Source: Octopus vulgaris
Lineage: Eukaryota
Direction of reading: 5' to 3'
Length of the DNA stretch: 64,000 nt
Assembly: GCA_951406725.2 (NCBI GenBank)
Contig: OX597841.1
Span: forward strand, 16,492,001-16,556,000
Shown here: one piece after another, positions 52,111 to 55,437 of the stretch
How positions within the stretch are numbered: position 1 is the stretch's first letter
Layout of the letters: every line of letters begins with the position of its first letter
The notes under the pieces: model-generated
What the model was told of the DNA's origin: nothing
The model's input: only the letters and a program-made list of their open reading frames with translations
The model's database searches: none
Position numbers and translations under genes: made by a program

Positions 52111-52784
52111 GTAGTAGTAGTAGTAGTAGTAGTAGTAGCAGTATCAACAAGAGTCAATTAATTAACCGATATACCAAAAAACATACCGATTGGTTCACCA
52201 ATCGTTCGGTCAATCTATCAATCAATCAATCAATCAATCAGCTGATGAATGAATCGTCTAGTTTTTGCCACAGTTCTTCCGTTGCCATTCGAGTCCTCAT
52301 CAATCACATGACCCCGCCCGTCACTCCAGCTCTGTCACATGATAAAGCCACGAATGGCGACGAAAGAATTCTCGCTAAGCTAGCTGAATAATTGTTTAAG
52401 TGATTATTCGATTCATTGATTGATTGGTTGGTTGATAGATCGACCGATCGAACAATCAATCGAGTACCAAAACCTTAGAAACGTTAGTAAAACAGTTTAA
52501 AGAAAGGCGAAGATTATAGTAAGTATTTTACCATAGGAGTGGCTGTGTGGTCAGCAGGTTGTTAAGCGGTGGTAGGACACCCCACACGTATATATATATA
52601 TATATAATAATAAATATTAGGGAATAAATCCAAATTTACAGGGAAAAAATCAGATTTAGGATTAAATCCAATTTTATAGTAAAATATTATAAAATATTAT
52701 TAGAGACAAAACCACTATTTTGCAAAACAAACAAGGAAATACTTAATCAATACATAAAATTTTAATAAATAGTCAAAAAAACCG

Positions 52785-52827
52785 CCACTACAATTGTTTC
52801 TTGTCTTGATCAACAATCTTCAGGTGG
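52785..52827 (-). ncRNA. Minimal type I hammerhead ribozyme (antisense copy)
   Basis: rc: ccac CTGAAGA ttgtt gatcaa gacaa GAAA caattg TA gtgg. Confidence 0.75.
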
Positions 52828-52880
52828 ACTTCCAATAAGTCAGTTTCGACTTCATAATTTGAAACTGACTTATTGGAAGT

Positions 52881-52923
52881 CCACCTGAAGATTGTCGATC
52901 AAGACAAGAAACAATTGTAGTGG
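52881..52923 (+). ncRNA. Minimal type I hammerhead ribozyme
   Basis: ccac CTGAAGA ttgtc gatcaa gacaa GAAA caattg TA gtgg; palindromic stem III ACAATTGT; atypical U-A pair at base of stem II. Confidence 0.78.
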
Positions 52924-53015
52924 CGGTTTTTTTGACTATTTAAAATTTTAAAATTTTATGTATTGATTAAGTCTTTCCTTGTTTGTTTTGCAAAATAGTG
53001 GTTTTGTCTCTAATA

Positions 53016-53066
<51 letters not shown>

Positions 53067-53995: not shown

Positions 53996-54568
53996 ATATA
54001 CTTTATTTATATACTTTATATATTTTTTTTTTACATTAAACCTAAAACGTAATTTTTACGCAAAAACCGAATTTTCCCTCCAGGTATGATTGCAACATGA
54101 CTAGCTTCATTATTTTAAAATTAAAATACTGACTATTTTTTTTCCCCAGATTTCATTTTATTTACCTGTAATTACATTCTACGCCTAGTTTTTATATCTT
54201 ACATAAAATCCCCTTTCTTACCTGTGTTGTAATAATTAAAATAAAAATGGCGCATATGTACTATAAGCTTTTAATCAAAACATGACATTAAAGGGGATGA
54301 CTGAAATATCACCTTTCTGGTGGTATTATGTATAAAAGTTTTTATTAAATGAAACAAAAGAGAAAAAAAGAAATGGCATTGGAAGGGCGACGTATGCGCA
54401 GCACTGATGAATTCTTTCGCAAAATATAGTGTAGTTTATAATGTGTTGCTTACCCATGCTTCTTAACTGAATTGAATTAAATATATATATATATACATAC
54501 ATATATATATATATATATTTATATATCGCATTCCGACTTTGTAATATATATATATATATATATATCGC

Positions 54569-54833
<265 letters not shown>

Positions 54834-54852
54834 ATATATATATATATACACA

Positions 54853-54944
<92 letters not shown>

Positions 54945-54959
54945 TATATATATACATAC

Positions 54960-55014
<55 letters not shown>

Positions 55015-55016
<2 letters not shown>

Positions 55017-55243
55017 GGAGTAAACACATAAATGTGAAACAAGGTGGAAAAAAGAGTACTCAAATACCAGTGATAGAGTAATATGCTTTATTTAAAGCAG
55101 CAGAAAATTCAACAAAATCTGTTACTCTGAGTTTCTCGTTGCCGTTCATCAGACAGTTTTTGCTAGAAAAAACTGTCTGATGAACGGCAACGAGAAACTC
55201 AGAGTAACAGATTTTGTTGAATTTTCTGCTGCTTTAAATAAAG
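55015..55243. mobile_element. Fold-back element in a long (TA)n tract: perfect 76-bp arms (55086-55161 / 55168-55243)
   Basis: Inverted repeat with 6-nt spacer; one-sided tail 55015-55085. Confidence 0.88.
55171..55212 (+). ncRNA. Minimal type I hammerhead ribozyme (mirror copy on - at 55117-55158)
   Basis: ctgt CTGATGA a cg gcaa cg a GAAA ctc a gag TA acag; stem II reduced to a GCAA tetraloop hairpin with an A-A mismatch at its base. Confidence 0.7.
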
Positions 55244-55277
<34 letters not shown>

Positions 55278-55392
55278 TATATATATATACACACATATAT
55301 ATATATATATATATACACATATATATATATATATACACATATATATATACATATATATATATATCCACATATATATATACATATATATCCAC

Positions 55393-55437
<45 letters not shown>

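What the first reader, a model, noticed from the sequence alone, without database searches (positions are those of the whole stretch)
55015..55243. Second dual-polarity ribozyme fold-back with perfect 76-bp arms and an ultra-minimal hammerhead
Seen: arms are identical reverse complements with a 6-nt spacer, so the structure is young or homogenised. The turn-around lies immediately 5' of stem I, so both hammerheads survive. Stem II is only cg-GCAA-cg with an A-A at its base and stem III ACTC-A-GAGT cannot close comfortably as a monomer, which suggests dimer-dependent cleavage. Its sequence is unrelated to the 52.6-kb element, yet the layout is the same (TA | tail | arm-loop-arm | TA).
Basis: partly seen in the sequence, partly recalled or inferred. 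Interest (0 to 1): 0.75.

Follow-up and report, generated by a model that had tools for sequence, protein, structure and literature searches.

The report
Mini insertion of Penelope-like retrotransposon
This 229-base hairpin is one of hundreds of very short insertions of a young Penelope-like jumping gene, and its two mirror-image hammerhead motifs are two copies of the element's end, likely made side by side during insertion and joined where the RNA template likely begins, not a new two-way ribozyme.

Summary
In detail: perfect 76-bp arms (55086-55161, 55168-55243), spacer GCTAGA, a 71-bp one-sided tail, (TA)n flanks and a minimal type I hammerhead in each arm. The reading as a stand-alone two-way ribozyme does not. 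The hammerhead core has 3,674 exact hits in the genome. It is the pseudo-LTR of a 3.36-kb Penelope-like element (PLE) whose 711-aa RT/GIY-YIG ORF carries the Hydra-clade motifs; 61 of 63 scored ORF matches have no stop. Insertions are head-to-head pairs of 5'-truncated copies, and this is the shortest common class (529 loci; 103 with this exact junction). A55193 is never T (0 of 84 arms).

The family is informative on mechanism. All 42 same-junction copies examined have one tailed and one tail-less arm. In 29 of 42 the tail-less arm reaches further 5', which excludes simple fold-back copying and favours two separately primed cDNAs. Of 100 arms, 44 stop within 19 nt of the ribozyme core, but 0 of 18 ORF-spanning arms do, pointing to an RNA 5' end there and a second, longer template class. 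Cleavage, the start site and twin priming are inferred, not shown. New member of a known kind.

The parts
55015..55085 (-). PLE 'tail': 71 bp present on one arm only, between the two recurring 3' ends (…AATAAAG and …TCCGG); in the intact element it lies between the hammerhead and the ORF
55086..55161 (-). left arm: pLTR copy with tail, read on the minus strand; its native sequence continues through the spacer to about 55168
   Evidence: blastn to the intact unit, 97%
55119..55156 (-). minimal type I hammerhead motif, minus-strand copy
   Evidence: mirror of the plus copy
55162..55167 (.). junction GCTAGA: 5' end of the left arm (16 nt before the CTGA core) joined to the right arm; same junction in 103 loci
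55168..55243 (+). right arm: tail-less pLTR copy ending at AATAAAG
55173..55210 (+). minimal type I hammerhead motif: 4-bp stem I, 2-bp stem II with GCAA loop flanked by A·A, palindromic stem III ACTC-A-GAGT, predicted cleavage after 55206
54482..55014 (.). (TA)n-rich microsatellite, left part of the target site (start approximate)
55244..55436 (.). (TA)n-rich microsatellite, right part of the target site (end approximate)

Best explanation
The sequence is a minimal head-to-head insertion of two 5'-truncated pseudo-LTR copies of a young Penelope-like retrotransposon with Hydra-clade motifs, likely made by twin target-primed reverse transcription and likely ending at the 5' end of the element's RNA. 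Shown: parent element, copy numbers, (TA)n targets, two fixed 3' ends, the pile-up of 5' ends 13-19 nt before the hammerhead core. Inferred steps: the RT/GIY-YIG protein nicks both strands of a (TA)n tract; one nick primes at the distal start site (…TCCGG, tailed arm) and the other at the proximal one (…AATAAAG, tail-less arm), on one uncleaved RNA or on two RNAs from the same source; when priming uses the first pLTR of a linear transcript, both cDNAs run off its 5' end near CC-A-TTCTAG after about 90 and 160 nt; the two cDNA 3' ends are joined through the self-complementary CTAG or A/T microhomology and filled in. The hammerhead is carried twice only because it lies between the RNA start and the RT start sites; it likely cleaves only as a dimer in the parent RNA and is predicted to be silent in a transcript of the hairpin.
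For: Parent: direct repeats of the core about 3.36 kb apart; L061 holds a 711-aa ORF with RWK, DKT, YRDD, CxCX5C, GVVY..YTG, CxxC, CxH; 61 of 63 scored ORF matches at 96-100% have no stop. Two 3' ends: of the first 100 core hits on contig C1, 53 short, 39 long, 4 internal, 4 other. One tailed plus one tail-less arm in 42 of 42 same-junction copies; the arm that reaches further 5' is tail-less in 29 and tailed in 13 (three rows re-sorted by eye because deletions fooled the script). In 11 long inverted insertions the tail-less arm reaches further in 6 (by 10-1021 nt) and the tailed arm in 5 (97-1483 nt), overlaps 0-20 nt (complex L061 left out). Same source for both arms: a subfamily variant is mirrored in 10 copies and single in 2 (one of these a deletion), and 4 private substitutions are mirrored; own arms are closer than the median other arm in 15 of 16 long insertions. 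Template end: 44 of 100 arms end 0-19 nt before the core (30 at 13-19), 2 at 20-59; genome-wide 2,728 exact hits reach CTAG and 1,565 reach 8 nt further; 144 loci are perfect palindromes on CTAG. Control: 0 of 18 ORF-spanning arms stop within 19 nt of the upstream core (shortest 24 and 25), so the stop is not a property of the sequence. Not the ribozyme cut: 16 fold-backs around the cleavage site against 529 before stem I. In vitro a Poseidon PLE cleaves and extends both strands, starts at two internal sites that bound the tail, and uses uncleaved RNA (PMC11167929, main text read).
Against: No RNA 5' end was mapped: only contigs were available and the table of molecule starts was empty. The 0 of 18 result also means that long copies do not come from a simple linear RNA starting at this site, so a second template class (tandem read-through or circle) has to be added. 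One of 30 copies (L028) has the tail on both arms, which a strict one-site-per-strand rule does not give. The 100 arms are not independent (many are pairs) and were picked by an exact core match. TTCCATTCTAG could also be read as a splice acceptor; no spliced joint to it was seen in four runs of contigs, which does not exclude one. Pfam and PDB sequence searches gave no hit for the ORF, so domain calls rest on motifs and on relatives. One long insertion (L069) had arms no closer than other copies.
Confidence: 0.62

Rival explanations
1. Same PLE origin, but one cDNA folds back on itself at CTAG, copies itself into a hairpin or palindrome with two tails, and the endonuclease then trims the tail from either arm during integration.
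For: Explains mirrored variants, perfect CTAG palindromes and the two-tailed L028. The short end abuts an ATAT-like sequence that resembles the target. PMC8557442 (passage) suggests that the tail comes from endonuclease resolution of the intermediate.
Against: Without the added trimming step it fails in 29 of 42 copies. Long insertions would need the cDNA end to invade up to 1.5 kb back on 0-20 nt of overlap. The in vitro tail ends of a Poseidon PLE are RT start sites (PMC11167929).
Confidence: 0.22
2. PLE origin, but the pile-up before stem I is caused by an RT stall (RNA structure, bound protein or spliceosome at a TTCTAG acceptor) and not by a transcription start.
For: The site reads like a 3' splice site, and in Drosophila Penelope an intron ends at the 5' end of helix I (PMC4209133). 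13 of 100 arms stop 0-9 nt before the core.
Against: Arms that pass the same sequence a second time never stop there (0 of 18; about 3e-5 by hand if each stopped with probability 0.44). The edge is sharp: 30 arms at 13-19 nt, 2 at 20-59.
Confidence: 0.12
3. A non-autonomous hairpin element (retrozyme- or viroid-like) that is copied as a unit and uses ribozymes on both strands.
For: 103 loci share the exact junction and many share both ends; non-LTR retrozymes derive from PLE pLTRs (bioRxiv 10.64898/2026.07.22.740005, abstract and introduction).
Against: The same junction occurs with the tail on either side (29 against 13) and with both subfamily alleles mirrored, so it arose many times; junctions form a continuum up to several kb; copies are not tandem; the 76-bp duplex buries the core.
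Confidence: 0.04

Closest known systems
Hydra clade of C-terminal EN+ Penelope-like elements (PMC8557442)
   Same: [quoted passage not shown] The hammerhead listed for coral Hydra-2_aMil has the same stem I (ctgt/acag), core and actc-N-gagt stem III, and CCATT just upstream. Penelope-13_HM is listed with hammerheads on both strands because of a 5'-truncated inverted copy.
   Different: Unit 3.36 kb against mostly under 3 kb; tail 71 bp against the 30-40 bp described for PLEs; stem II 2 bp, shorter than in any Hydra row of File S2 (3 bp or more). Not the listed Hydra-1_Obim family (other hammerhead; 0 hits for three motifs of this family in the supplement).
Minimal PLE hammerheads (PMC4209133)
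   Same: Type I, short helix I, extra nucleotide before stem II, palindromic helix III for dimers; dual motifs on opposite strands about 100-700 bp apart were already noted.
   Different: Helix II is very short here (7-8 bp in the Schistosoma motifs); the conserved G10.1-C11.1 pair is not present as such.
Poseidon PAc of Anolis (PMC11167929)
   Same: Two internal RT start sites bounding a tail; AT-rich target; hammerhead near the ORF start.
   Different: Other clade; here the hammerhead lies 205 nt upstream of the first ATG and both ends lie before the ORF; the parts read do not explain inverted pairs.
LINE-1 twin priming (recalled, no call)
   Same: 5' inversions made by two primers from the two target nicks, joined by microhomology.
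   Different: In L1 the second primer anneals internally at variable places, giving non-overlapping segments; here both primers use two fixed sites 71 nt apart, so the arms duplicate the same sequence.
Non-LTR retrozymes (PMC7229834 passages; bioRxiv 10.64898/2026.07.22.740005 part 1)
   Same: Small non-coding type I hammerhead sequences tied to PLE pLTRs.
   Different: Retrozymes are head-to-tail tandem repeats giving circular RNAs; this is a head-to-head pair.

Membership tests
Penelope-like element (EN+) | single ORF with RT and C-terminal GIY-YIG endonuclease in the parent element | tested here: met
   711-aa ORF with YRDD at 344 and GVVY/YTG at 580/598; by motif, Pfam gave no hit on it; relative P0002 has a GIY-YIG Pfam hit
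Penelope-like element (EN+) | pLTRs from partial tandems, inverted 5'-truncated copy, one-sided tail | tested here: met
Penelope-like element (EN+) | type I hammerhead in the pLTR | tested here: met
   core 205 nt (204 in 2) before the ATG in 18 of 20 intact-ORF loci
Penelope-like element (EN+) | RT phylogeny with PLE and telomerase RTs | not tested
   no named reference proteins were held as sequences
Hydra clade | RWK, DKT, CxCX5C linker, CxxC and CxH near the C-terminus | tested here: met
   positions 37, 113, 562, 667, 695; conserved in most of 13 relatives; criteria
Hydra clade | CCHH motif absent from the endonuclease | tested here: met
   no cysteine between GVVY and YTG
Hydra clade | N-terminal GxKF/Y motif not conserved | tested here: inconclusive
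   the ORF reads GNKY near residue 50, but the 13 relatives do not keep it
Hydra clade | (TA)n insertion | tested here: met
   30 of 30 loci have TA at the tail-side flank and 29 at the other
Hydra clade | generally under 3 kb | tested here: not met
   unit about 3.36 kb; a descriptive trait, one listed member is 3,045 bp
Hammerhead ribozyme, type I | CUGAnGA, GAAA and NUH with three helices | tested here: met
   same spacing in 64 of 75 related motifs, by my count of rows; no Rfam hit
Hammerhead ribozyme, type I | self-cleavage | not testable with these tools
   needs an assay; no genomic pile-up at the predicted site
Non-LTR retrozyme | head-to-tail tandem repeats with a hammerhead per unit | tested here: not met
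   copies are head-to-head pairs in unrelated flanks
Non-LTR retrozyme | expressed circular RNA | not testable with these tools
   only contigs available

The most novel reading that the evidence does not exclude
The family is a genomic record of the unresolved PLE transposition cycle: every insertion is made by two reverse transcriptases, one from each target nick and each bound to a different one of two fixed start sites; priming in the first pLTR of a linear uncleaved RNA gives strong-stop-like mini palindromes, while long tandem copies come from hammerhead-processed circular or multimeric RNA, and the palindromic stem III pairs the two RNA templates.
Probability: 0.3. Interest if true: 0.68.

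Novelty: new member of a known kind. Interest (0 to 1): 0.4.

Why it matters
The hairpin itself is ordinary PLE debris, and short TA-embedded hammerhead palindromes of this kind should be annotated as truncated PLE insertions. Its value lies in the family. How PLEs make their inverted repeats and one-sided tail was called undefined in PMC8557442 (passages). This young family, with dozens of intact ORFs and thousands of ends, gives countable rules (one end of each kind per insertion, independent arm lengths, a template edge present only in short products) and a candidate active Hydra-type protein with which to test them. Its 2-bp stem II is also a natural test of how small a working hammerhead can be.

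Tried and rejected
Rfam at gathering score: no hit. Whole-window inverted-repeat scan was swamped by TA tracts. Pfam and PDB sequence search on the ORF: no hit; of 4 relatives scanned only P0002 gave GIY-YIG. Sequencing runs: no RNA holder listed. Contigs of 4 of the 23 runs were laid on L061:4934-8298: summed contig depth was far higher on the two pLTR bins than on the body and dropped 5- to 23-fold in the bin upstream of 8211, but contig depth cannot rank parts and the runs are only guessed to be RNA, so I do not count it; no start pile-up and no GT..AG joint were listed. Folding the single arm gave no significant structure (z 0.1-0.6). Rejected: A55193 as a broken A-U pair; turn-around at the ribozyme cut; one master hairpin; identity with Hydra-1_Obim. 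The ungapped walk stopped at indels and was replaced, whose stops between about 150 and 540 nt are partly subfamily indels and were not used. Earlier findings of the scan: none by sequence or words. Literature: 'Penelope' with 'twin priming' gave 3 papers, by their listings none on PLE insertion; searches listed no paper that, by title or abstract start, gives this mechanism or this family; subscription papers and repeat databases are outside the library, so the family or the model may be in print.

Full report
Observation. The window holds, between two (TA)n tracts, a 71-bp tail (55015-55085), a 76-bp arm (55086-55161), GCTAGA, and the exact reverse complement of the arm (55168-55243). Each arm carries a type I hammerhead motif: stem I CTGT/ACAG, CTGATGA, A-CG-GCAA-CG-A, GAAA, ACTC-A-GAGT, predicted cut after 55206. 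As RNA the whole folds into one hairpin (-135.7 kcal/mol, z -21.5). Rfam found nothing at gathering score. The species was not established; G000 is 2.8 Gb in 227 contigs.

Family. A DNA search gave 981 candidates; the 40 scored loci were 98-100% identical. In the 30 loci fetched the window copy differs from all others at one place only, 55073 (these were the best matches, so this is biased). The 34-nt core has 3,674 exact hits, reversed control 0. The listed hits come as divergent pairs from about 10 nt to over 5 kb apart and as direct repeats about 3.36 kb apart.

Parent. L061 (C1:64213800-64222800) holds four hammerheads and an intact ORF, 711 aa from the first ATG. It has RWK (37), DKT (113), YRDD (344), CxCX5C (562), GVVY..YTG (580, 598) with no cysteine between them, CxxC (667) and CxH (695). 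These are the Hydra-clade traits given in PMC8557442 (section 11 read). It has 1,074 relatives among 7,999 scored candidates, the listed 120 at 43-58% identity and almost all unnamed. Pfam and PDB gave no hit, and no tree was built, so the clade call rests on motifs. The paper's File S2 lists a coral Hydra hammerhead with the same stem I, core and stem III pattern, and one Hydra family with motifs on both strands because of an inverted copy. In G000, 63 ORF matches were scored, 96-100% identical, 61 without a stop: the family is young and likely active. The window has no other piece of it.

A55193 is A in 80 of 84 arms, G in 1, missing in 3, never T. Related motifs keep the 10-nt spacing in 64 of 75 rows by my count, mostly as T-CG-NNNN-CG-T with CpG decay, and many Hydra hammerheads have T..T at the base of stem II. 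The mismatch is therefore a family trait. A monomer hammerhead fold scores +0.7 kcal/mol and the stem III self-duplex -7.4, in line with the dimer model of PMC4209133 (parts 1-2 of 4 read), which also found low activity in vitro and noted opposite-strand pairs. Activity here is untested.

Two fixed 3' ends. Of the first 100 core hits on C1 (all 100 fetched), 53 end at AATAAAG, 39 run 71 nt further to TCCGG, 4 continue into the element and 4 are other. In the first 42 of the 103 loci with the window's junction, each has one tailed and one tail-less arm (the script's three 'short/short' rows have a tail shifted by deletions and were sorted by eye; four tails are partial or rearranged). One of the 30 loci (L028) has two tails.

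Both arms come from one source, but neither is a copy of the other. A subfamily variant is mirrored in both arms in 10 copies and single in 2; four private substitutions are mirrored. In 15 of 16 long insertions the two arms are closer than the median other arm. Yet the arm that reaches further 5' is the tail-less one in 29 of 42 and the tailed one in 13. In 11 long insertions the split is 6 to 5, with differences of 10 to 1,483 nt and 0-20 nt overlap at the junction. A cDNA that folds back cannot give its copy a tail it lacks, so plain fold-back fails for most copies. Two separately primed cDNAs fit, as does the finding that a Poseidon PLE protein cleaves and extends both target strands and starts at two internal sites that bound the tail (PMC11167929, parts 1-2 of 4 read). 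Fold-back followed by endonuclease trimming of either tail remains possible.

Why the turn-around sits just before stem I. 529 loci turn within 16 nt between the two stems I: 144 are perfect palindromes on CTAG and 103 match the window. Only 16 turn around the predicted cleavage site. Of 100 arms, 44 end 0-19 nt before the core, 30 of them at 13-19, and 2 end at 20-59; genome-wide 2,728 hits reach CTAG and 1,565 reach 8 nt further. The edge falls on CC-A-TT, which reads like an initiator (consensus recalled); Drosophila Penelope has an internal promoter with an initiator (PMC2377424, passages). As a control, 18 of 20 intact-ORF loci include the upstream hammerhead and none stops within 19 nt of it (shortest 24 and 25 nt). 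So the stop is not built into the sequence: short products meet a template end that long products do not. This result also counts against the simplest model, since long copies cannot come from a linear RNA starting at that site; tandem read-through or circular RNA (proposed in PMC4209133) is needed for them. No RNA end was observed directly.

Verdict. A minimal inverted insertion of a PLE with Hydra-clade motifs (origin about 97% sure); twin priming with run-off at the RNA 5' end is the best mechanism (0.62). The parts are known: hammerhead in the pLTR, inverted truncated copy, tail, (TA)n target (PMC8557442, passages). The end statistics bear on an open mechanistic question; my searches (listings only) found no paper stating this model, but the library lacks most subscription papers, and the supplements of the bioRxiv preprint and of the other papers were not seen. 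Interest 0.4.

Noticed in passing
window 52601-53025: A second, sequence-unrelated family with the same layout: 1,223 candidates, the 40 scored at 93-100%; long and short 3' ends, and in the loci read the arms end at or near TTCATAA, 30-38 nt before its CTGAAGA core (loci picked by likeness to this copy). Probably another PLE; its ORF was not sought.
   Followed up: partly
L164-L175: Older, diverged relatives in the genome keep a 2-bp stem II with T..T at its base and ACTC-N-GAGT; 75 hits with the pattern used.
   Followed up: partly
L061:4772-8298: Intact unit has a 3' UTR of about 1.1 kb and a four-hammerhead inverted-tandem layout; the inverted ORF copy is frameshifted.
   Followed up: partly
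L061:8232 and 8293, run X5: Loose contig ends look like a template-switch cDNA adaptor (recalled), one each, inside the pLTR; too few to map RNA ends.
   Followed up: no
L076; L069: L076 has two arms cut 5 nt before the core and separated by about 1.2 kb of other sequence beginning with TA; L069 has a damaged 3' end. Likely later insertions or deletions.
   Followed up: no
L080 and L100 (C1:67.41 and 67.47 Mb): Two copies with the same rare junction and similar flank in opposite orientation 60 kb apart, likely a segmental duplication.
   Followed up: no
window 52140-52470: An imperfect inverted-repeat element with (TCAA)n/(TTGA)n arms just left of the 52.6-kb element, seen by eye.
   Followed up: no
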